Shown: piece by piece, positions 1,244 to 48,495 of the stretch
Numbering within the stretch: the stretch's first letter is position 1
Layout of the letters: the number at the start of each line of letters is the position of its first letter
Origin: Octopus sinensis
Lineage: Eukaryota
Length of the DNA stretch: 64,000 nucleotides
Reading direction: 5' to 3'
Assembly (NCBI RefSeq): GCF_006345805.1
Contig: NC_042999.1
Span: 165,974,001 to 166,038,000 of the forward strand
Translations under genes and position numbers: made by a program
Notes under the pieces: generated by a model
What the model saw: the letters and a program-made list of their open reading frames with translations, nothing else
Databases searched by the model: none
Told to the model about the DNA's origin: nothing

Positions 1244-1693
1244 ATATAAAAATACAAAATGGACAAGAATGCAAAACATCCGAATAGCTAGGTGATACAA
1301 AAAGGGACAACAAAACATCCAGATAGGCGATACAAAGAAAACAAGGATGGGTCATTCGAAGTTTTCTTTCCTCAGTCAAACACCAGATTATCCTCGCAAT
1401 TTCGGCTGATCATTCTTGAGATTGCTCCAATCTGACCAGCCCCAAGGAAAAACTAAGCTAAGAGCATTAGATTCCTTGGAAGAAAGCAGTGAATGTATAC
1501 AAAAACAAGGACGGAAAAAAACAGACAAAGTTACACAAATATAAACACAATAATAAATACAATAAAAATATTTTTATTATATTTATTATTGTATTTGTGT
1601 AACTTTGTTCGTTTTTAATATTTAATAATCATAGCATTTTATTTAATCTGTATGTAGTATGAGTGAATGTATTGTATTGTTAATCTTACTTAC

Positions 1694-1782
1694 CGACACT
1701 TTCAACTTGTACTTGTTACATGACTTAATAAATCTTCTAAAGCCATCAGTCTCCTTGGTAGCAATTGTTACTATTAAGAGTT
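1694..1782 (-). CDS. PLOD: Lysyl hydroxylase (procollagen-lysine 2-oxoglutarate 5-dioxygenase), coding exon 2
   Basis: Minus-strand acceptor tctttttctctattgtAG and donor GTAAGT bracket 89 nt translating as (E)LLIVTIATKETDGFRRFIKSCNKYKLKVS. This closely resembles the PLOD1 N-terminus as I recall it ([29 protein letters not shown]). It starts in phase 1, matching exon 1. Confidence 0.92.
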
Positions 1783-2994
1783 CTACAATAGAGAAAAAGA
1801 ACAACTTGGTAACATAATTTATTCTGAAAGCTTTCTACATCAAACATGTTTGACAACTGACTTTGATAAAGCACAAACTATAACAGGACACACTTTTCTC
1901 TAGCCCAGCAGCAGAGTGTGTCAACAAGCAGATAACAAGCTGTGACAGGTAGACTTCAGCAATAGAGGTACACAAACAAGAAAATATGGATTAGATAGAA
2001 TGCTGGGAGGGAGTAAGAAATATTTATGTTAACAAGAATGATAACTTCATAGAATTAAGCCAATTAGTATCAATTAAGCCACTCTGTAACAGTGTTTCCC
2101 AACCTATTTTCCCCCAGGCCCCACTATGACTTTCCAGAAAAATGTATACTCCACCAGTGGCATACATAAAGAGATTAATAATTGACTTCTCATGATTATA
2201 TACTCTCCTTAAAGAAATATCCACACTAGGGCTTCAGAACAGTTTTCACACAGTATGCTTGGCTGAAGGAGAATTGACTTGGCTGGGCTGAGTGTAGGTG
2301 TTGTATATTTGCTGTGAGAAGAAAAGATTTTCAAGAAAAAATGTTGGATCTCATGCCCCATGTTGCTCTGCATGGTTTTTTGGCCCATTAGAAACAGTAA
2401 CCTATTTCCTCTCAAATCACTCTTTATCATTCGATAATGTAGCACTGCACATCCATAAAAAGACAAGATCATAATGGCAAGAAATTCCTCAGATCATAGA
2501 TCCACTGCTTCAGGTTCAATCTAAGGCTAAAAAGTAAAGCAATGACTTCATAGATTGGAGAACATTCATAAGTTTGAATGCCTATTTTCACTCCTAGACT
2601 GATCATACATGTTTCTCTATCTATCTAACTATTTTATCTGATTTCTATCTATTTTGTCTGATTTGTTCATTTCTCCTCTCGTTATATGATCGACCTTCAT
2701 CCTCTCGTTATATGATCGACCTTCGTATGATCGACCTTCGTGTATCGCGGTGCACCCACCCTGCCCACCCCCACCACCAATACCGGATATCTCTATTTTT
2801 CTCCATCTATACCGGATGTCGCTTCTCCCACTACCATTATAGGTGTCTTCTCTTCGAACCCCCCTCTTCAATACGCTATTTTACCATGCATTACCCCTCT
2901 CTTGATATCCTACCTTCTACTTGCCTACAACCTGTCATCATTTCTCTGAACCACCCCTCCCCACTGGTGCTCCCCTATATTCCTGCACCCCCCC

Positions 2995-6413: not shown

Positions 6414-7546
6414 CTAGCAGTAAAGACCCGTCGTTGCCGGGTCATAGTGCTAGTGCATGTATATATGTGTATATATATGTGTACATATTACATGTACATC
6501 TATATATATATACATCTACACATAAAACACAAAATACAAAGTTATATCTTGATATCGCTAGTGATAACAATACTCAAAATATATAACAGACTGGAATTGT
6601 TAGCCCGTCTCTAGTAATTTCGATCAATTGTGCCTAGTCCTCCCTCTTGTATAGAAGTGTGGCTACAATCCAGCCTACCTCTACTTTGGAGGGGGGGGGG
6701 GCATTTTAAAATTTTTTTCCGGGACGTCCTACGTCCCAGATATAAAGGTAGAAATAAAATATTTCCACTTTGCAAGTTCGAGTCAAGTATTCCCTTGCAT
6801 GCTCCGTTGACTCGAACCTTGCTTCTATTGTGGTGAATTTACCGCCTCTGATTAGATATCTTTCATAGTCGCACCAAGACACTTTTCGAAGATGCTTTCC
6901 TCCATGTGTTCAAATCTTCTTTTTTCTCTACATTGTATACTTTATAGACAATAGTCTTTTCTTTAATTTAATTTTTTATTATCCATCTGGACTATTCCAT
7001 CTCTGCACGCTAATTTTATTTTTAATTTATTCCCATTCATGTGAAACCACTTATTCAAGTTCAAATCATTGATGCAATCTTATACCAATTGCTATTTTTA
7101 CTTTTGTTATGTTACGATTATATTATACTTTAGTTTGATTTTAATTATTACTTACTACATATTGTTATTATTATTTTTATTGTTAAAGTGAAAGTATCTG
7201 ACATAAAATAGAGAAATGTTTTTGTTTCACTTTTAACACGTAATACTGAAATAGTGGAGAAGATATGATATTGCTATGGGCTCGCTCTAGGCAAGAAGTT
7301 GAACATTTTTTTGCCCATGAAACTACATGGAACCTCAGTAAGGCATATGTAAAATTTGAATGGAATTGGTCGTGTAGTTCTCAAGTTTTAGGGAATCATA
7401 GTGGAGAAGATATGATATTGCTATGGGCTCGCTCTAGGCAAGAAGTTGAACATTTTTTTGCCCATGAAACTACATGGAACCTCAGTAAGGCATATGTAAA
7501 ATTTGAATGGAATTGGTCGTGTAGTTCTCAAGTTTTAGGGAAACAC

Positions 7547-12267: not shown

Positions 12268-12894
12268 TTCAAACACGCAAGATGAATAATGGATCAGAAA
12301 AGCTAAGTAAATTCAGTTCAGGCATAACATTTATGGAGCATTGGAAAACGGTCAATGGAAATTGTTGCATAGTACTAGTGAAATCAGTAGATGGCATGAT
12401 CCTAATGAAAGACCAGTGAGTAATAGTTGTTTGCTGGAAGTTGGGCTGGGTGGGAGCAGTTTCAGTCAAATGATAAACCAATGGATCCAGCAGACGGAGA
12501 GAAACTTTATGAATTGGCCATCATCCACCATTTTGAAAGACACAAGCTTTTGCAGAGGTTAGAGCTACATACATGTGAATGGGTGCTACTTCAGTGTGTG
12601 ATCTACCACAGTATCTGTGGTCTACACAGTAAAATGATCTGATCTAGGTCAGGTTTAGGGTTAAGGTTAGGGGCTAGAGAAAATTTAGGGTTAAGGGCTA
12701 GACTGCAAACAAAATGTAAATGACCAGGTAGACTGCATGTATATAAGCATACATGTGTAGAGAAATGTATGTATATGTGTAGATGTGAGCATATGTATTG
12801 GTATTCCAGACATCATCATATAATGTTGTCTCTCTCCTTAAAGAACATTATAGAGAAATACTAAATTTTTAGTTTATTTCATTTTATTTATATA

Positions 12895-13291
12895 CTAGCA
12901 GTTTCGCCCGGCATTGCTCGGGTTTGTAAGGGAAATAACTATATAAGCATTTTTAGAGAGTTATAGCCAAAAAATAGCAAAAAAGTGCATTAAAAATGGA
13001 AAAAAAATTATGGTAAATTTTTTTTTTTAATCGTTGACTCATCGTAGACATTTTTAGAGAGTTACTTCCCTTATATAATAGCGAAAAATGTATTAAAATG
13101 GAAAAAATGATGGTAAATTATTTTTAAAATCGTAGACTCATCGTAGACGCGCGCTAATACCCAGAAGGGCTCGATATGAATCACGACTATAAGATACCCG
13201 GTTTTGGTTAAACTGCACCGCAAAATGTGGGAGTAGTTAGGAATCTAAATTGTAGGAGACAGACACACAACTTCACTTTTATATATAAAGA
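12895..13291 (-). mobile_element. Non-autonomous Helitron (family H1)
   Basis: CTAG end, cccggcattgctcggg hairpin and TC start; very similar to 39130-39630 and 57539-57939. Confidence 0.88.
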
Positions 13292-34333: not shown

Positions 34334-36120
34334 GACTTGGTTCATCAACACAGATTGTGTGGGGTCGGTCGGTGGCAGAGTCTGGCCTACGTGATGCAGA
34401 GCAGATTTGCTTAGTCAACATTTTGATTCGCTTGTTTGTTTCTTGCTATTTCCTTAAGAATCTAAGTAGGGAGGAAAGAGATGACACCAGTCAGTTGGCT
34501 TGTACCCCATTTATTGACATTACTGAATTGATCAAAACAAATCGATCAACGTCTTTGTCTTTGTCTTTTCTCGCATTCCTTGAATGAATAAACATTGAAG
34601 GCTGCCTCCACATGGTTGCTCGATCTACTAGAAATAGCAGCCAAATCTCCTTCGAATCACGACCTACTGTCTTGAAAAATGTACACATTGAATAATGTAC
34701 ACTAAAGAAAAAAATTATATGAGGGTAACTATGGGAACAGCTTTGATCATAAGCAGCAGAATCAGATATTGCTGACCTGGGGACTAAAGGGCTCTGCCTT
34801 TCTCAAAAGCCACAGTGATATAAGTGAAGTAAAATAACAACAAGCAATTGCAAGGAATCCTTTTTGTAGTCTAACTTGCTATAAATGACAATCAAATCGC
34901 CCTCAAATGACATCCTACCGTCACGAAACTATAAAATTGTCCCAGATACACTTATAGCCTCACCCACTCGAGATGACAACGGCCGAAAGCTTTCAACGTA
35001 TGTATTCCAGGTCATGGTTGACCTGGGGCTAAACAGCATCATTATGAACTGTCTCCGCACAGGGCTCGTCCCAGCTCTGCAGCTTTATTAATATGAATTT
35101 AAAGGCATTTTTACAAATGTATCCAGTCACTTATTAAATAAATCCAGCAGAAAGTAAACTTTATAGAAAGTTTATTCCCCAATGGCAGGTGGAAACTGAT
35201 ATTACGTATTAGACAAAAAGCTGAGAGTGACAATTTCTTTTTAAAGTCTTCTTTCTTTCTGCTGAAGTATTCAGAACAAATTTTCATCTGAGTTTATCAA
35301 CTTTACTTTTCAATTTCTTTCTTTTTATTCCAATAAGCAATTATTTCATATTCAATTTTTAATGTCTATCATAACCAGAACGATAGATAGATAGATAGAG
35401 TTGCATAATACACACATAAACGATGATGGGGAGACGATTTAGTTAAACGATTTGGGCCAATATGGAAAATAAGGGCGCAATCAATAAAGAATTGGAAGCG
35501 CACTGTGACCAGCGGTATATAACATCCGTCTGATTGATACAGGTGATACACACACACACGTGTGTGTGTGTGTATACATGCACGTGTGTTTGCATGAGAC
35601 AGAATGGTTGCAGGTATGCACATGAAATGTGTACAGTGTGTGACCCGATCGTGCAATACAATGGAATCGGCTCCAGAGAATTGGTTCTCCCCGTAGAGAA
35701 TATTCAGGTAAGTTTCCTAAGAATAGGATATTTCCATAAAGCCGTTTACCATGGATCTTTCATTAAATGTGGTATTAATAATATATATTTTTTTACGAAC
35801 GTGCGCTTTTATACACACACGCTTCATTTTGACAACCTTGGCGATTTAAGGACACTTCTTTCTTTTTGACTACGAAATCAACTTCTCTGGAGTTGATATT
35901 GTCTTTTAACCGGCGGTAAAACAAGTACCAGTAACATACGGCGGTTAAGTGGATTGCCGAGGGTGTTTCTCCCAGGCAAAAGTTTTCGTTTTGCAGTGCC
36001 TGGTCCGAAACAAATATGTTATTGCAGTTAAGAAACTTTGGTGGATCCGCTGAATGTCTGCGGCGATGCTTTGACTATTTTACCGAATGAAATTCTATAA
36101 ACAAATAAATAGTAACTCAC

Positions 36121-36181
36121 CTTGACAGACGACCATATAAAGATCCAAAAGTGCGCAAAGAATTAAGATATATTTCTTCAT
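36121..36181 (-). CDS. PLOD: Lysyl hydroxylase PLOD coding exon 1 (signal peptide)
   Basis: ATG at 36181 gives MKKYILILCALLDLYMVVCQ plus one G, then a CAAG|GTGAGT donor. G+AA forms GAA (Glu) in frame with exon 1694-1782. The basic-then-hydrophobic peptide fits an ER-luminal enzyme. Confidence 0.85.
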
Positions 36182-36379
36182 GATTAGTGATAAAAGAATT
36201 TACATCGGAGATTACGATGGCTTTTTGTGTAGAGAGAGAAGAGAAAACGAAGAGGAAATGTATTTGGTTTGGTGCCAGAGGAAAAAGTGCGCGAGTGGAA
36301 ATGGTAAACGTGGAACAACGAATGATGCCAAGTAGACAGAGGGTTAAAAGAGGCTGAGTTGTGTTTGTAGATGCCACAT

Positions 36380-36620
36380 CAGCAACTTCCGAGAGGCTGT
36401 AACTTGATAGTCTACTGTTTAGGCTTCTGACTGTTGAAGCAGCGGATGGCAGGCAAAGACCAGTGGAAGCCGTCTTTTACGACATCAACAACATCTTCGT
36501 GGTTTCACTTCCGCCGACGTCACTTCCTCTGTCGAATTCTGTCATGGCAACTACAAGCTGACAACAATTCCAACTTCTTTCCTCAAAATCTATTCGAGCG
36601 GTCTACTGCAGTAACCATAA
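36380..36620 (-). promoter_or_regulatory. CpG-rich putative PLOD promoter
   Basis: Local CpG enrichment upstream of exon 1; cACTTCCG-ccGACGTCACTTCCt gives tandem ETS-type motifs overlapping a CRE-like GACGTCA. Confidence 0.65.
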
Positions 36621-36923
36621 TCTTATGTTGTGAAATAACCTGATTTAGGTTGGGGCCAAGACTTCCGTCCGTCCCCCACCAAAATCCACCCTTTTAAACA
36701 TTTTTTTTATCCGACACAAACCCCACTTTTCGGCTATGCTGAATTCGAATCTGCAAAAAAATTGGCAAAAATCGACATTTCTAAATTACCACCCCCATTT
36801 CCTTTATTTTTAACTTTTTTTTTTTCAGAATTTTTTGTTCCAAAATATGCGGAAAAATACGGAGATAATGATTCTCAAAAAAATTTCCAAAATCTTTGTA
36901 AAATTTTTCTTTAAGAATTTTTG

Positions 36924-38213
36924 GATCGTTTCGCTTTGATCGGCAGATTTTAAAAATAATTTCTTTGTAACTAAATATTTTAAAACTTCGTATACTGGTA
37001 GAATGTGTTTATAAAACATCTTTTTCTTTTGGCTTTCTTGAGAAAATTCTGTAGTTTGTAAGCTATTTGTTGTTTAATTTCTTGCATTTCGGCAATTTCA
37101 ACCAATCAATGATGTCTATTGAGGTGAATACAATTACTGCTGTTTGTCAACAACAATTATTTGCGGTGTCATATGAATTTGTCACTGTTATTTATGACAT
37201 ATTTCATGTCAGTTACGTTCGTATGAATAAAAGTTATTAAACTTTTATTAATAAACGCATATCCTAAGTTCACAACATATGCAGTTTTAATTTCCCTCTC
37301 TGTTGCACAGATACTCACATTACAAATTATATATTCGTTTAAGAAACAGATTGGGTTTATTTACATTTCTGAAGAAAGAAAGATACCCTTCACCCACCCT
37401 AACCTTAACCCTAACCCTAACCCAACCCTAACCCTAATCCTAACCCTAACTCTAACCCTAACCCAACCCTAATCCTAACTCTAACCCTAACCCAACCCTA
37501 ACCCTAACCCTAATCCTAACTCTAACCCTAACCCAACCCTAACCCTAACTCTAACCCAACCCTAACCCTAACCCTAACCCTAACTCTAACCCTAACCCAA
37601 CCCTAACCCTAACCCTAATCCTAACTCTAACCCTAACCCAACCCTAACCCTAACCCTAACTCTAACCCTAACCCTAACTCTAACCCTAACCCAACCCTAA
37701 TCCTAACTCTAACCCTAACCCAACCCTAACCCTAACCCTAACTCTAACCCTAACCCAACCCTAATCCTAACTCTAACCCAACCCTAACCCTAACCCTAAC
37801 CCTAAAACAGATTGAAATGCAATAGATCAATACTAGGGTCATAATTATGGGTGGACACTAAAGAGGGAACGATTTTGTTATCCAGCTCTGTTTACGAGTG
37901 ACCCCTCAGTTTATGGCCACAGGGTATCTTTTTTCTCGTAAATAACAGTGACAGATTCATATGACACCGCAAATAATTGTTGTTGACAAATATCCGGAGA
38001 AATTATATTCACCTCAATAGACGTCATTGATTGGTTGAAATTGCCGAAATGCAAGAAATTAAACAACAAATAGCTTACAAACTACAGAATTTTCTCAAGA
38101 AAGCCAAAAGAAAAAGATGTTTTATGGAACACATTCTACCAGTATACGAAGTTTAAAAGTGTTTAGTTACATAGAAATTATTTTTAAAATCTGCCGGTCA
38201 AAGCGAAAAGATC
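36924..38213. mobile_element. Fold-back element with ~275-bp TIRs enclosing a telomeric array
   Basis: 36924-37197 is the reverse complement of 37936-38213 with few mismatches; both ends are GATC and both flanks are TG. Confidence 0.88.
37397..37805. repeat. Interstitial telomeric repeat (CCCTAA)n with CCCAA, CTCTAA and TCCTAA variants
   Basis: Directly visible ~410-bp array. Confidence 0.97.
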
Positions 38214-39129
38214 TGATTTTTTTTCTAAATATGCAGAAAAATACGGACATCATGATTCGGACAAAAATTTCAAAACATTTCTGTACTTACAGTTAGGGTT
38301 TTAGGGTTAGTGTTGGGGAAAAAAGTCAAAATTGAAGAAGTTGGGGGAAATGGAGGGGGTGGGGGGGCAATTTCACAATGCCGATTTTTGGCAATTTTCC
38401 GGAACGTCTGTATCCAAAAACGGGGATTTTAGGCAAAAAACAATTTTTTAATAAACAAATTTGGGAGAAAATGGGTGGGGGACGGGCGGAAGTCTTTCTG
38501 GGCTGGGTTTAGGGTTAGACAGCATGCTAAAGTGACTATTTATTGGCAGTAAGCCATAGCCTTGATCCTTGAGGCCTCCAAGTAACCATCCAGTGTACCC
38601 ATGCCTAAGATGGCACTACATGCAATTAAAATATTTGGTGGAGCCATCTTCTATCACTGCAGCGTCACACTAGATAGATGCTTTGGAGTATTTCTGCAGC
38701 TCTCAGCCACATGCTATTTGACAGCAGACTTTCAGAATAGCTATCTCACATAAGGTGAAATTTCTCTGCTTTCTCGGGATTTTTTTCAAATTTGTTATTA
38801 TCCCACATTTCAAAATCATTGGTGGTGGGTGGGTGGAGCCTGTTTAAAAAAGAATTCTTTTAATCCATGTTTTTTAAACATCTGCCCTTCCCCCATCATT
38901 GTATCCTCTATAATAGCCACCACAATTTTCTTTTCCATTATTTTCTATGTGATAACATTCAACATTTTGACAAGTAATTCACATTTGCAGAGATAAAAAT
39001 TTCATAACTCCTCTTATTTCATCATACTTTTCACAATTAAAATAATTTTCTTTTTGTCATTTTTTTTCTATTGTATGTCATACTCTGAAACACATCTGAT
39101 AGTCTTTGTAGCTTTCATTTATAAAAAAA

Positions 39130-39630
39130 CTAGCAGTATCGCCCGGCGTTGCTCGGGTTTGTAAGGGAAATAACTATATAAGCATTTTTAGAGAGTTATA
39201 GCCAAAAAATAGCAAAAAATGCATTAAAAATGGAAAAAAATGATGGTAAATTTTTTTTTAAATCGTTGACTCATCGTAGACATTTTTAGAGAGTTACTTC
39301 CCTTATATAATAACGAAAAAATGCATTAAAATGGAAAAAAATGATGGTAAATTTTTTTTTAAATCGTTGACTCATCGTAGACATTTTTAGAGAGTTACTA
39401 CCCTTATATAATAGCGAAAAAATGCATTAAAATGAAAAAAAATGATGGTAAATTATTTTTAAAATCGTAGACTCATCGTAGACATGCGCTAATACCCAGA
39501 AGGGCTCGATATGAATCACGACTATAAGATACCCGGTTTTGGTTAAACTGCACCGCAAAATGTGGGAGTAGTTAGGAATCTAAATCGTAGGAGACAGACA
39601 GACACACAACTTGACTTTTATATATATAGA
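39130..39630 (-). mobile_element. Non-autonomous Helitron (family H1) with an extra internal repeat unit
   Basis: CTAG end, cccggcgttgctcggg hairpin, TC start; three copies of a ~100-bp internal unit versus two in 12895-13291. Confidence 0.9.
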
Positions 39631-40889: not shown

Positions 40890-41340
40890 TATTGGATTGT
40901 CCAGAAAGTTTGTGCCGATTTATAGCAGCTTACCTTTTGACTTATTTTAGAACACGGTTGAGTTCATAAAATAGGATTTGACTACACCTCCATTTAGAGC
41001 ACAGTTTAAGCTATCTTTTCTTAGAAGAAGGTTTATGTTCCTATAACCTATGTTAATTCTGTAACCCTTTAAAATGGAAGATAAGAAAGTTCATTTTCGG
41101 CACTTGATGCTTTGGGAACCAGACAAAAATTGCTGCAGATCAGCTGGGATGTGTTACCCCACCCTCCATATTCACCAGATATTGCTCCTTTGGATTTCCA
41201 CTTATTCAGGTCGCTGGAGAATAGTCTTAATGGTTAAAATTTCGATTCCTTGAATGACATAAAAAGATACTTTGATGAATTCTTCGCCATGAAACCACCT
41301 CAATTCTGGTAAGAGGGTATTTTCAAGTTAAGGGAAAGAG
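40890..41340 (+). mobile_element. Internally deleted mariner, truncated at the RTE junction
   Basis: TIR-like tattggattgtccagaaagtt; MEDKKVHFRHLML start joined to WDVLPHPPYSPDIAPLDFHLFRSL. Confidence 0.85.
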
Positions 41341-44217
41341 TAGCACTTTTGATGTTTTGTACTGATAATAATCTGGTTGCCACCAACACTTTGTTTAAGC
41401 AGCAAAATAAATATAAAATCACCTGGATGTACTCAAGATCTAAGGACTGGCATCTCATAGATTATATTCTGATCAGAAAACATGATATGAAAGATGTTTC
41501 TAGTGTCCGGGCCATGAGAGGGGCAGAGAGCTGGGCTGACCATCATCTAGTGTGTGAAAAAATAGATTTTTCGATAATGCCTAAAAATCGACAGTCTGGT
41601 TCTAAGGTACCGAAAAAGTTAAATGTTGCAAACTTTAAATAATCAGGCAACTTGCAAAGATTCCACGATGAAATACAAAGCTTCAATCTTGACCCAAACA
41701 ATCTATGGGAAGATTTCAAAACAAAAGTATTTCAGGTTGCAAGTTTGTCAGTGGGATTTAGATTACGTAAGTCCAGTGACTGGTTCTCAGACAGATCAGC
41801 AGAAATGCATGATCTACTTTTAGAAAAACAAAACTTAGGCAATACACTTCTTTCTCAGTCATTCAACCCCAACTCAAACAAAGCTTACTAAAAGATGAAA
41901 AGTAAAGTGCAGACTGCGCTAAGGAAAATTAAACTGGAAAGGTGGAATGATAGAGCAAAAGAGACACAAGAAGCAGCTGATAGAAATGATGCCAAGAGTT
42001 TGTACTCTTATGTTAAAGAGGTATATGGCTCAAAATCTTCTTCAATAGCTCTGGTGAGAACAGCAAATGGACGTTTGCTTCTGACTAACACCGCTTCTAT
42101 TCACAAGCGCTGGGTAGAATATTTTTCTGCACTTTTGAATAGACCATCATCCGTTGACATGAGGAGGATAGAAAAAATCGAACACCTTCCAGTTATAGAA
42201 GAGATGGCATTTGAATCAACTCTAAATGACATTTATTTAGCTGTGAATAAGCTGAATAACAATAAGTCTCCAGGGTCTGATGGAATCTGGGCAGAAGTCT
42301 TGAAATATGGGAGTGACAAATTGTTTGAACTCTTTGTTTGAAATATATTAATTTCTCACTGTTGGAGAACTGAGAAAGTGCCTCAAGACTGGATTGATGC
42401 CATTTTAATCTCCTTGTATAAATTGGGGCCAAAGGATTCTGTGTGGCAATTTTCGTGGGATTTCGCTTTTGTCTGGGGTTTGAAAGGTACTTACCCACAT
42501 TTTGTAAGAACATTTAAATACCTTCATAGTTCCAAATATAGTGTTTGAGTCTCAGTGTGGTTATCGTTCCTCCAGGGGCACAGCTGATTGTATCTTTACT
42601 ATCAGACAATTACAAGAAAAGTGCATTGAACAGAATCTTGCTCTATACCATTACTTTGTTGGTTTGAACAAAGTATTTGATAATGTTAATTGAAATGCTC
42701 TGTGGCTAATTCTAAGGAAAATAGGTTACCCAGAAAAATTTGTAAACATGGTCAGGGCTTTGCATCAAGATATGAAAGCTACAGTTAACTTTGGTGGTAG
42801 GCTCTCCGAATCTTTTGCTGTGGAAAATGGAGTAAAGCAAGGAGACCTTGATGCACCCACCCTCTTTGCAACATACTTTGCTGTTGTGTTGTCACATGCT
42901 TTTCAAAACTCTGAGGAGGGTATTTACATAAAATATCGAACAACAGGGAATGTTTTTAGTCTGACTGAAATTCAAAATAAAGGTTTTTACTTCACTCATT
43001 TGGGAACTTTTATATACTGATGATTGCCATCTTATCAGTCATTCTGAAACAGGTCTGCAATCTCTTGTATCTGAATTTGAATCAGCTTGTGATGATTTTG
43101 GCTTGACCATCAACTTGAAAAAAAAAAACAGTTGTAATGTGTCGACCTGCATGTGGTGCTGTTTGTAACCCCACTAAAATTTTTGTTAAGGGAAAGTTAC
43201 TTGAGGTTGTTGATTCGTTCATCTACCTCGAAAGAGCTGTACCAAATGATGGAAATCTTGATACAGAAATACATCTGTGAATTCAAAGGGCAGCAAAAGC
43301 ATTTGGTGGTTTGGAGTCACGCGTTTGATGCCAGTGACATATAAATAAGAATACAAAGTTGGCTCTTTACAAATCATTAGTCTTACCATTCCTGTTGTAT
43401 TCTTGTGAAACATGGACTTATGAAAAACATTTTAAATTGTTAGAACAATTCCACCAAAAATGCTTTCATTGCATTTTAAACATTAAATGGAGTTCTTTTA
43501 CTCCAAACAAAGATGTCCTTGCATCTATTGGCATCACCTCAGTTGAAGCTATGATTTTGAGGAACCAAATGAGATGGTGTGGCCATATTGTTTGAATGGT
43601 AGATGAATGCATGCTGAAACAGCTGTTTTATGGTGAGCAAGCGGAAGGGAAACGCTATCGGCATAAATCTAAAAATAGGTATAAGGATAGCATAAGGACT
43701 ACTATGAAGTCACTTGGAATAGACCCAGAAGACATGGAAACCCTTGCTTCAGATCGAATTAGCGAACAAAAGTGTGAAGTGGAGTGAAAGCATTTGAAGA
43801 GGCCAGGGTAATACATGTAAGACTCAAAAGAGATCTAAGGAAGAATGTTGCGATCGAGAAGGTGAATGACAATGACCTTTTTGTGTGCACAGTCTGTGAC
43901 AGACCATGCCATTCTTCTGCTGGGCTCAAATCTCATTTGCAAACCCATGAAAATGAACCTCCACCAACTATTCTGCCTATATGACTGTGTATGCCGGAAG
44001 GTTTGCAAATCCAACGGAGGCCTCAAAAGACATTTTAAGATCCACAAAGATCAGAACTTATTTGCAGCTCTTGGTGTTCCAAATCAGATATGCAATCTAT
44101 GTAGGCATCTTTTCAGAACATTGTCTGGTTTAAAAAGCCACATCAGATGCCATGATGCTTCTAAGGAGTAGGTACAAGAGGTGGTCAAACTCTGCATAAG
44201 GAGTAGACAACCACCAT
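41341..44217 (+). mobile_element. Degenerate RTE-clade LINE (APE C-terminus, RT, C-terminal C2H2 fingers)
   Basis: Fragments WHLIDYILIR...ADHHLV (APE), NNKSPGSDGI, GVKQGDLDAPTLF (RT) and MRWCGHIV, then three Cys/His fingers; many stops and frameshifts. Confidence 0.92.
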
Positions 44218-46090: not shown

Positions 46091-48495
46091 CAGTGGTTCC
46101 TTCACTTACAAGTTTCATTCGTTCCATGATGGAGCTTGTAACTCAAATTGATTGAATGTCAAATTAAATGACCCCATTGAAATCACCTGAAATGCTATTA
46201 ATCTGTTCTGCACCCCCCACCCCCCAAACACCACAGTTTATTTTCTTATGTGTTTTTAAAAAAGGAAAAATGTATTTATAAATTATGAATATTGTATAAA
46301 AGACAATACAATGGAATGTACTGCAATAAACTGATTTTATTAAGTGTAATGTACAGCATTTACCTTCGAGATCAGACGACTTGAGGATGCCAACAGAAGG
46401 TGGAGGGGAAAGACTGAAATGAACAACTGAATCTTATCCACGGATTTTGGCCCTTTTCGCCACGCTTTCCTCACTTTCATCAGCAGGAGTTTTCGATAAC
46501 AACCTGTTCAATAAGGTTTGTTTCATCCTTACTGTCAAAGTGTTTCTGAAATGAGTTCAGCAATTGTCATTAAATTGTGCCATCACATGGCCACTTGCAA
46601 CTTTTTCTGGATGTTTCTTTTGAATAAAGTCTGAAAGTTTCTCCCAACATTTCCTTTATTGCACTGGTAGAGATAACCTCCTCCATCCCCCCACCCTTGT
46701 CGCCTATTTCCTGCAAAATCTCTGTATACTGCTGCATCTGTAGCTTCTTTAGCTCTTCCACTGACAATTCTTCAGAGTGCTCCTCGATGAGCTCATTGAT
46801 GCCATCTTCATCCTCATCCAGGCCCATGCACATGCTGAGCGATACAATCTCCTCCTCCACCACTGCTGCTTCAGGTTCGAGTCTTTCAAAGTCCATTTCA
46901 GACACAACTTTAGGCGACAGCTTCATCCATGCAGAGGTGAAGGTCCTCTTTGTAACACCTTGCCAGGCCATATCAATAATTCTGAGGCGTACCACGATGT
47001 TATAGTGTTCCTTCCAGAACTCTTGAAAAGTGAGGTTTGTGTTTTCCATCACCCCAAAGCAGTGGCAGAACAGGTGCTTGGTGAAGAGCTTCTTAAAATT
47101 AGAAATCTTCTGCTGGTCCATGGGTTTCAGGACAGGGCTGGTGTTGGGTGGAAGGTAGAGAACCTTTATAAACTTGAACTCTTCGAGGATGTCATCTTTG
47201 AGGTTAGGTGGGTGAGCAGGTGCATTTTCCAGGATGAGAAGGGCTTGCAGGAGTAGGTTATTTTCCTGGAGATATTTCTTAATGTCGGGACCAAAGACCA
47301 AATTGACCCACAAATAACTGCCTGGCAACTTATGACCTTGGATTTGCCCTTCACATAACCTGCAGTTTTTCTTTCAAAATCTTATGTAACTTAAAGGCTC
47401 TGGGGTTTCCTAAATGATAATGAGCAGTGGTCTAATCTTGCAGTTGCCGCTCGCTCGCATTAGTGCACAGTGCAAGGGTTAGCCTCTCCTTCATGTGTTT
47501 ATGGCTGGGCATCCTCTTCTCCTCTGCTGCTATATAAGTCCACGTTGAAGAATTGCTGGTGGATGTATCCTTTGGCTGCCATAATTCTGGCAAAAGTTTT
47601 GAGGTAATCCTCAGCAGCCTTCATGTTTGCTTCTCGCTGCCTCACCATGGCTGACAAGTGGGTGAATACCGGTCCGCTTTTAAAATTCTTGAACCAGCCC
47701 CAACTAGCTTTAAATGGTTCACCTGATGTCTCGGCCATACAAGTGCCTGGGGTCTGTTGCAGCAAATCAGCATAAATAGCTCAGGCTTTCTCACAGATTA
47801 TGGCCTCTGTCATGGTACCTCCTGTAAGCTGCTTCTCCGTCAGTCACACTATCAGCACTTCTCCATATTTTCATGGATAGATGTCTGATGTTTAAAAACT
47901 ATTTCAATGCCCTTGGCTGGCATTATAATCTTTATCGACTCCTTCTGCTTCTGTATGGTGCAGATTGTAGAAGTGCTAGGCCCGTACTGCTTCACCATGT
48001 CACTACATGCACACATCGATCATGTTTTTCGATAATTTCTTTCTATAATTCAATGCACATTATCCGCTTCTTCTCGCCACGTCCTTCACACTCACTTTCT
48101 TCAGATCCATGGCAGCTGAGGATTACCTCAAAACTTTTGTTGCCAGCACAACACTGATGCTTCTGTAGCCTGCAACAACTAAGTAAGCATTTTACCACTC
48201 ATCTAGCTAATGATCCACTAATGATCTTCGCACTTGCTAACACACATGTCTGTCTGGCTAGCGACCTATTTATGATATTGCACTTGCTAATGTGCATACC
48301 TGTCTAGGTATCAAGTGAGACACGGGATGTTAAGGTGTTCCTGTGGTATTTGATATACCAACTAGCAGTGGGGTATCTGAAGCAAGCTTGTTACCAGAAT
48401 TTTAGCGTGCAACTCAAAGCGAAAGATCAGCCAACGAACAGCTCATATCTCGAAACACTCATTAGTTGGGACACTCATAAGTCAAGGCACCACTG
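46091..48495 (-). mobile_element. Full-length Tigger/pogo transposon with decayed transposase
   Basis: TA|cagtggttccttcacttac...ataagtcaaggcaccactg|TA. Contains FKASWGWFKNFK (CENP-B-type HTH) and LLILENAPAHP...LPPNTSPVLKPMDQ (DDE_1-type domain). Confidence 0.93.

What the first reader, a model, noticed from the sequence alone, without database searches (positions are those of the whole stretch)
36658..38520. Nested fold-back elements carrying a telomeric array directly upstream of the PLOD promoter
Seen: ~410 bp of (CCCTAA)n with recurring variant patterns lies inside a 1.29-kb element with ~275-bp TIRs, GATC termini and a possible 2-bp TG duplication. That element sits inside a second TIR element that has its own TTAGGG snippets (38294-38310), with more TTAGGG-like sequence in the flanks (36644-36652, 38506-38518). 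I cannot assign these termini to a superfamily. Inference: a DNA-transposon family may be spreading interstitial telomeric arrays, possibly favouring TTAGGG-containing targets. Here it places potential G-quadruplex and telomere-protein binding sites under 1 kb from a promoter.
Basis: partly seen in the sequence, partly recalled or inferred. Interest (0 to 1): 0.7.

Follow-up and report, generated by a model that had tools for sequence, protein, structure and literature searches.

The report
Mini-transposons scattering telomere repeats genome-wide
One small gene-less jumping element sits inside another just upstream of a collagen-modifying gene (PLOD); both belong to high-copy families, likely moved by Merlin transposases, that carry telomere-type repeats and account for 14 of 17 short internal telomere-like sites sampled on one chromosome, with no effect on the gene shown.

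Summary
The nested structure is real, but its ends were misread. The inner element is 36923-38214 and the outer 36655-38499. Both families end in GG…CC and make 8-bp target duplications, not 2-bp ones. That is the Merlin signature. Transposase-coding Merlins are abundant in this genome, and one has arms homologous to the outer element; no partner was found for the inner one. The telomere-type tract is a fixed internal cassette (6,458 exact junction matches genome-wide). It is normally short (median 32 bp) and is expanded here to 415 bp, the longest of 75 copies measured. Such elements hold 14 of 17 position-ordered sites with four or more pure repeats on contig C1, so transposition is likely the main source of short interstitial telomeric sites here. 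Preference for TTAGGG targets was not found (2 of 64; background 5%). The PLOD first exon is confirmed by spliced contigs; no regulatory effect was tested. Repeat-laden Merlins and MITEs are known, and transposon-borne telomeric sites have been proposed in reviews. This scan noted the same kind of element in other genomes.

The parts
36655..38499 (.). Outer non-autonomous TIR element (family length about 500-620 bp), interrupted by the inner element; family termini GGC…TCC
36647..36654 (+). Left 8-bp target-site duplication of the outer element (AGGTTGGG)
   Evidence: 6/8 match to the right copy
38500..38507 (+). Right 8-bp target-site duplication of the outer element (GGGCTGGG)
36923..38214 (.). 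Inner non-autonomous TIR element, 1,292 bp (family length about 880-970 bp with the usual short tract); family termini GGATC…GATCC
36915..36922 (+). Left 8-bp target-site duplication of the inner element (GAATTTTT); single copy in uninterrupted outer elements
38215..38222 (+). Right 8-bp target-site duplication of the inner element (GATTTTTT, 7/8)
36923..37197 (+). Left arm of the inner element
37936..38214 (-). Right arm of the inner element
37391..37805 (+). Expanded degenerate (CCCTAA)n tract, 415 bp; longest pure run 4 units; 8 canonical G-quadruplex-type motif matches on the minus strand
38289..38317 (+). The outer element's own telomere-type tract in its short 29-bp form (23-156 bp in 21 copies)
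36121..36507 (-). PLOD first exon: ATG at 36182-36180, splice donor at 36120; contig 5' ends at 36473, 36481, 36507 and, in one run, 36689
1688..1783 (-). PLOD second exon region (GT_PLOD positions 4-35), joined to exon 1 in contigs of four runs

Best explanation
Two gene-less inverted-repeat elements, one inserted in the other, each carry a telomere-type tract as a fixed internal cassette; they were likely moved in trans by Merlin transposases, and the tract likely rides as passive cargo and changes length by slippage after insertion. Shown: structure, GG…CC ends, 8-bp duplications, nesting order (outer first, inner second), thousands of dispersed copies, and that 14 of 17 sampled short pure arrays on C1 lie in these elements. 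Inferred: each family founder acquired a short tract between its arms, once, probably during gap repair when the internally deleted element formed. The family then amplified in a burst, and single copies later gained or lost units; this copy is an extreme expansion. The position beside the PLOD promoter is probably a tolerated insertion.
For: 8-bp duplications: 43 identical and 17 at 7/8 among 64 inner-clan elements selected at 6/8 or better; the unselected length scan favours 8 bp for both families. Merlin DDE domain: 150 scored matches of 690 candidates, several inside GG-ended elements with 8-9-bp duplications. An outer-family profile matches both arms of the DDE-coding locus L145 in arm orientation (best E 1e-18) and hits 11 of 70 Merlin loci against 0 of 30 MULE loci. 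Copy numbers: 1,184 and 14,205 exact termini of two subfamilies and 6,458 tract junctions, all controls 0. In 30 copies of this subfamily the tree is star-like (22 of 27 inner branches unresolved), mean pairwise distance is 0.051, and tract length is unrelated to relatedness (Mantel rho -0.02, p 0.59). Variant units are subfamily-specific: among tracts of 40 bp or more, CTCTAA in 15 of 15 and CCCAA in 7 of 15 of this subfamily; the 4-bp variant in 11 of 13 and CCCAA in 0 of 13 of the short group. That fits inheritance plus slippage. Short-read contigs of two other studies bridge the inner 5' junction and of three the outer one.
Against: No DDE-coding element with the inner clan's ends was found among 66 distinct loci examined, of 150 scored and 690 candidates. 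11 of 14 complete copies in the position-ordered sample lack the tract. The 17-site sample is small and comes from the first 76 Mb of one contig; by bases, a single array of over 16 kb beside an assembly gap outweighs these tracts. The tree had unsettled bootstrap values and only 328 columns. The MULE control is weak: 1.5-kb flanks, and 10 of 30 loci on small contigs. One higher-order test was not significant (longest repeated unit string 12, shuffle maximum 14). The 415-bp length itself was not checked against reads. Passive carriage does not explain why unrelated families carry the same kind of tract.
Confidence: 0.72

Rival explanations
1. The tract helps the element: it binds a telomere-repeat protein or excludes nucleosomes, which raises transposition or shelters the copy, so unrelated families acquired and kept it.
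For: At least three groups without detectable similarity outside the tract carry one between their arms: the inner clan, the outer family and the palindrome at L213; a fourth small family shares only the tract flank. The most numerous subfamily (14,205 termini) carries the cassette in its usual 400-445-bp form. One inner-type family has the outer family's 8-bp variant unit, so cassettes were exchanged or converged.
Against: Many complete copies with intact duplications lack the tract (11 of 14), so it may not be needed, although loss could be later than insertion. The usual tract has only 2-5 units and is degenerate. No binding data.
Confidence: 0.15
2. Telomerase adds repeats independently at each copy, at breaks made by the fold-back arms or by excision, so the tracts are local healing scars.
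For: The organism likely has TTAGGG telomeres (array of over 16 kb starting at an assembly gap). Tract length varies without regard to the tree. Telomerase-type insertion is the standard model for short vertebrate sites (PMC9693754, passages).
Against: Same position, polarity and flanks in thousands of copies. Subfamily-specific variant units recur across loci and differ from the scattered variants of the long array. The longest pure run here is 4 units.
Confidence: 0.05
3. The nest has been co-opted as part of the PLOD promoter, the long tract acting through G-quadruplexes or repeat-binding proteins.
For: The outer end lies 148-182 bp from three contig 5' ends and one contig reaches into it. 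The insertion is shared by runs with three organism labels. This tract is the longest of 75 measured.
Against: The copy has decayed like its siblings (0.025 from the family majority, range 0.006-0.047). The 0.43-0.46 GC stretch lies at 36201-36700, mostly outside the nest. With many thousands of copies, some will lie near promoters. No expression test.
Confidence: 0.08

Closest known systems
Merlin superfamily (IS1016/IS1595-related) and its non-autonomous derivatives; PMC8101967 (passages, S1 Table part 1 of 2)
   Same: 5'-GG termini, 8-9-bp duplications, arms within 24-462 bp, internal tandem repeats; the paper proposes that Merlin spreads tandem repeats and reports many Merlin sequences in an octopus.
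   Different: The paper's main text has no occurrence of 'telomer', and its table gives periods, not sequences. One sea-slug family has a 6-bp array of unknown sequence. Here the repeat is the telomeric one, in several families and thousands of copies.
Tandem-repeat-carrying MITEs such as DTC84 of the clam Donax (PMC3879986, abstract); Xstir and (GTCY)n MITEs (listed in PMC6947457, table passage)
   Same: Flanks act as a cassette for an internal array of variable copy number with diagnostic variants.
   Different: DTC84 has short inverted repeats, a 2-bp duplication and non-telomeric core repeats; these elements have long arms, 8-bp duplications and TTAGGG-type cargo.
Short interstitial telomeric sequences; reviews PMC6410037 and PMC9693754 (passages)
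   Same: Short, degenerate internal TTAGGG runs that change length by slippage; transposition by mobile elements is named as a possible origin.
   Different: There the usual model is one-off insertion at repaired breaks and transposition is only a proposal; here the carrier families are identified and counted.

Membership tests
Merlin (non-autonomous derivative) | Termini 5'-GG…CC-3' | tested here: met
   Inner and outer families; this inner copy ends in T and this outer copy starts GCC, single changes against the family.
Merlin (non-autonomous derivative) | 8- or 9-bp target-site duplication | tested here: met
   8 bp best of lengths 2-10 in both families.
Merlin (non-autonomous derivative) | Terminal inverted repeats of 24-462 bp | tested here: met
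   About 275 bp inner; outer arms imperfect and modular.
Merlin (autonomous) | DDE_Tnp_IS1595 transposase in the element | tested here: not met
   Longest stop-to-stop frame overlapping the nest is 91 aa; no listed PF12762 match at this place. It is not an autonomous element.
Merlin (non-autonomous derivative) | Arms shared with a Merlin-coding partner: outer family | tested here: met
   Both arms of L145 are homologous over about 240 bp, about 67% identical; PF12762 lies between them. A relative, not the direct parent.
Merlin (non-autonomous derivative) | Arms shared with a Merlin-coding partner: inner clan | tested here: inconclusive
   None among 66 distinct loci of 690 candidates; nearby hits look like separate insertions.
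Mutator/MULE | Duplications mostly 9-11 bp (recalled, from no call) | tested here: not met
   9 bp and 10 bp fit far worse than 8 bp.
Mutator/MULE | Arms shared with MULE-coding loci | tested here: inconclusive
   0 of 30 loci, but flanks were only 1.5 kb.
hAT or P element | 8-bp duplication with CA/TA-type termini (recalled, from no call) | tested here: not met
   Duplication length fits, termini are GG. Their transposases were not searched.
Break-repair short interstitial telomeric sequence | One-off insertion at a unique locus | tested here: not met
   Same cassette junction at 6,458 places.
Chromosome-fusion telomeric array | Head-to-head arrays at a fusion point (recalled) | tested here: not met
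   The 415-bp tract has one orientation and is bounded by transposon arms.
Any Repbase/Dfam family | Match to a deposited consensus | not testable with these tools
   Neither library is held.

The most novel reading that the evidence does not exclude
Merlin-type mini-transposons have repeatedly captured the host's telomere repeat because it recruits telomere-binding proteins that help them move or escape silencing, and they have thereby laid a network of thousands of telomere-protein docking sites through the chromosomes, some expanded beside promoters such as PLOD's.
Probability: 0.15. Interest if true: 0.8.

Novelty: new variant of a known kind. Interest (0 to 1): 0.45.

Why it matters
Short interstitial telomeric sites are usually read as scars of break repair or chromosome fusion, and transposition is only a proposed origin in the reviews read. 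Here carriers are identified and hold most of the short sites sampled, so internal TTAGGG signals in this animal should not be read as fusion marks without checking the flanks. Thousands of near-identical copies with tracts from 13 to 415 bp are also a ready series for measuring how telomeric repeats expand inside chromosomes and at what length they bind telomere proteins.

Tried and rejected
2-bp duplication and GATC termini: rejected by the length scan. TTAGGG target preference: not found; the first outer-family test was one base out of register and was redone. A third element around the nest: the right flank has one other weak match in the genome and the rebuilt empty site has no terminal inverted repeat. 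Autonomous partner of the inner clan: candidates L128, L141, L143 and L148 inspected, none convincing. A first motif scan of minus-strand frames of 35 aa or more and a first reading frame did not identify the gene; the family search and contigs did. No run is on record as RNA: 'no RNA holder listed'; the four runs used are guesses, supported by their splice-like loose ends. Contig depth was not used as copy number. Look-up of earlier findings by sequence gave nothing. Ten paper searches listed no paper whose title or abstract start describes Merlin or MITE families carrying TTAGGG in a cephalopod; most subscription papers, Repbase reports and unread supplements are outside this.

Full report
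Observation. The window is G000:C3:165974001-166038000 in a 2.72-Gb assembly. The animal is likely an octopus; that rests on the scan's notes for this genome and was not tested by homology. The sequence shows a 415-bp C-rich tract at 37391-37805 between two arms that are 93.5% identical over 278 columns, and a second set of imperfect arms further out. Of 70 units, 40 are canonical and the longest pure run is four. The triplet CTCTAA-CCCTAA-CCCAA recurs 8 times (shuffles: mean 1.0, maximum 5 of 5,000; 4-unit repeat statistic p 0.015), although the longest repeated unit string was within the shuffle range.

Ends and order of insertion. A search with the left arm gave 3,700 candidates, 40 scored, 92-94% identical. 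Comparing copies moves each end out by one base, to GGATC…GATCC, and shows 8-bp duplications. Over 17 complete rows (16 elements), 8 bp was perfect in 9 and within one mismatch in 13; 2 bp was perfect in 1. The outer left arm gave 1,015 candidates, 40 scored. Other outer copies are about 500-620 bp, begin GGC and end TCC, and have 8-bp duplications: mean identity 0.85 at 8 bp against 0.25-0.41 at other lengths in 18 copies. They run through the inner site with one copy of the 8-bp target. So the outer element came first and is the more diverged (80-88% to its scored siblings).

Superfamily. PMC8101967 (passages) gives Merlin as GG termini, 24-462-bp arms and 8-9-bp duplications, summarising Feschotte 2004, which I did not read. 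PF12762 had 150 scored matches of 690 candidates in G000. I fetched 70 loci, 66 of them distinct. Several hold GG-ended elements with 8-9-bp duplications, and six of six proteins scanned carry the domain. An outer-family profile hit 11 of the 70 loci and 0 of 30 MULE loci; in L145 it covers both arms of a DDE-coding element in arm orientation, best E 1e-18. An inner-arm profile hit 10 of 70, but the four most promising looked like separate insertions. The outer family is therefore linked to Merlin by sequence and the inner clan by structure alone.

The tract as cargo. Exact counts, controls 0 in each: 1,184 termini of this subfamily, 14,205 of a shorter sister subfamily, and 6,458 tract-flank junctions. 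Tract length in 49 copies had a median of 32 bp, the next longest after this one being 141 bp; in 75 copies the next longest was 219 bp. These samples are biased towards close relatives and, towards pure runs. In 40 position-ordered termini of this subfamily on C1, 14 formed complete elements with a duplication and only 3 held two or more exact hexamers. Of 18 position-ordered junction sites, 16 had a measurable tract of 13-52 bp. The outer family's tract ranged from 23 to 156 bp in 21 copies and uses a different variant, TTTTAGGG.

Share of interstitial sites. Four pure repeats matched 4,258 times, many in long arrays. The first 30 loci make 17 distinct sites in the first 76 Mb of C1. Ten lie in the short subfamily, three in a third inner-type family, one in the outer family, one in another palindromic element, one is isolated, and one is an array of over 16 kb that begins at an assembly gap and may be a misplaced telomere. 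That is 14 of 17 in the families studied. The sample is small and from one contig.

How length changes. For 30 of the 75 copies, those with this subfamily's inner segments, the tree is star-like and tract length does not follow relatedness (rho -0.02, p 0.59); variant units are subfamily-specific. This fits a founder tract inherited through a burst and then slipping locus by locus. It fits poorly with fresh telomerase addition at each site. How founders got the tract is inferred only. That groups with no detectable similarity outside the tract all carry one is unexplained and is the basis of the novel case.

Targets. A telomere-like hexamer lay within the 72-bp empty site in 2 of 64 inner-clan insertions, against 230 of 4,620 background windows, and in 2 of 18 outer insertions, one being this one. 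No preference is shown.

The gene. GT_PLOD exons lie at and beyond the window's left end on the minus strand, the first at window 1688-1783. Contigs of four runs from four studies, guessed to be RNA, leave the genome at 36121 and continue with the start of that exon, an intron of about 34 kb. Their 5' ends are 36473, 36481, 36507 and 36689; contigs cannot fix a start. The outer element begins 148-182 bp beyond the first three and the tract about 0.9 kb beyond. The tract holds 8 G-quadruplex-type motif matches. Nothing here shows an effect on the gene.

What is known. Internal tandem repeats in Merlins, and their possible spread by transposition, are stated in PMC8101967 (passages and S1 Table part 1). 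Repeat-cassette MITEs are known in a clam (PMC3879986, abstract) and listed in PMC6947457 (passages). Transposition as an origin of interstitial telomeric sites is a proposal in PMC6410037 and PMC9693754 (passages). PMC9071541 (passages) added nothing on carriers. Ten searches (listings only unless named above) showed no description of these families; Repbase and Dfam could not be checked. Earlier notes of this scan describe the same kind of element in other genomes.

Verdict. A real nest of two likely Merlin-type mini-transposons with telomere-type cargo; a new variant of a known kind. The genome-wide carrier role is the interesting part and the promoter position is probably incidental. Interest 0.45.

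Noticed in passing
L227:3186-9901 and L228 (G000:C1:75755185 to beyond 75771800): A noisy (CCCTAA)n array of over 16 kb starts right after a 100-base assembly gap in mid-contig; likely a telomere placed internally by scaffolding, or a very large interstitial block.
   Followed up: partly
L043, L047, L128, L134, L139, L141, L143, L148, L150, L151: Inner-clan copies lie near 10 of 70 Merlin transposase loci and 0 of 30 MULE loci; with nests such as L106, L139 and this window, Merlin-type elements may cluster. The control is weak.
   Followed up: partly
L201, L205, L211: A third family has inner-type arms (about 77% identical) but a tract with the outer family's 8-bp variant unit and different flanks, suggesting exchange of cassettes between families.
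   Followed up: partly
L151:4271-4537; similar in L133, L139, L152: A small GG-ended palindromic element shares the 45-bp tract-flanking motif with the inner element, and its first six bases match those of the coding Merlins L039, L040, L048 and L050.
   Followed up: partly
L118:2222-5592; L123:2148-5454; L145: Palindromic Merlins with inverted copies of transposase sequence inside one pair of ends; L118 and L123 each have two facing DDE matches.
   Followed up: no
L041, L044-L047, L052: Merlin transposase genes flanked on both sides by inverted tandem arrays of an approximately 315-bp unit.
   Followed up: no
window 12640-12700: Isolated degenerate TTAGGG-like stretch in PLOD intron 1, weakly similar to the target site of the outer element (35 bp, 83%).
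   Followed up: partly
window 41313-43595 (+) and 46570-47780 (-): Broken reading frames resembling a LINE reverse transcriptase and a DDE/CENP-B-type transposase (by eye, not searched).
   Followed up: no
window 39183-39485 and 12948-13148: Related arrays of an approximately 100-bp unit at two places, probably another dispersed repeat-carrying element.
   Followed up: no
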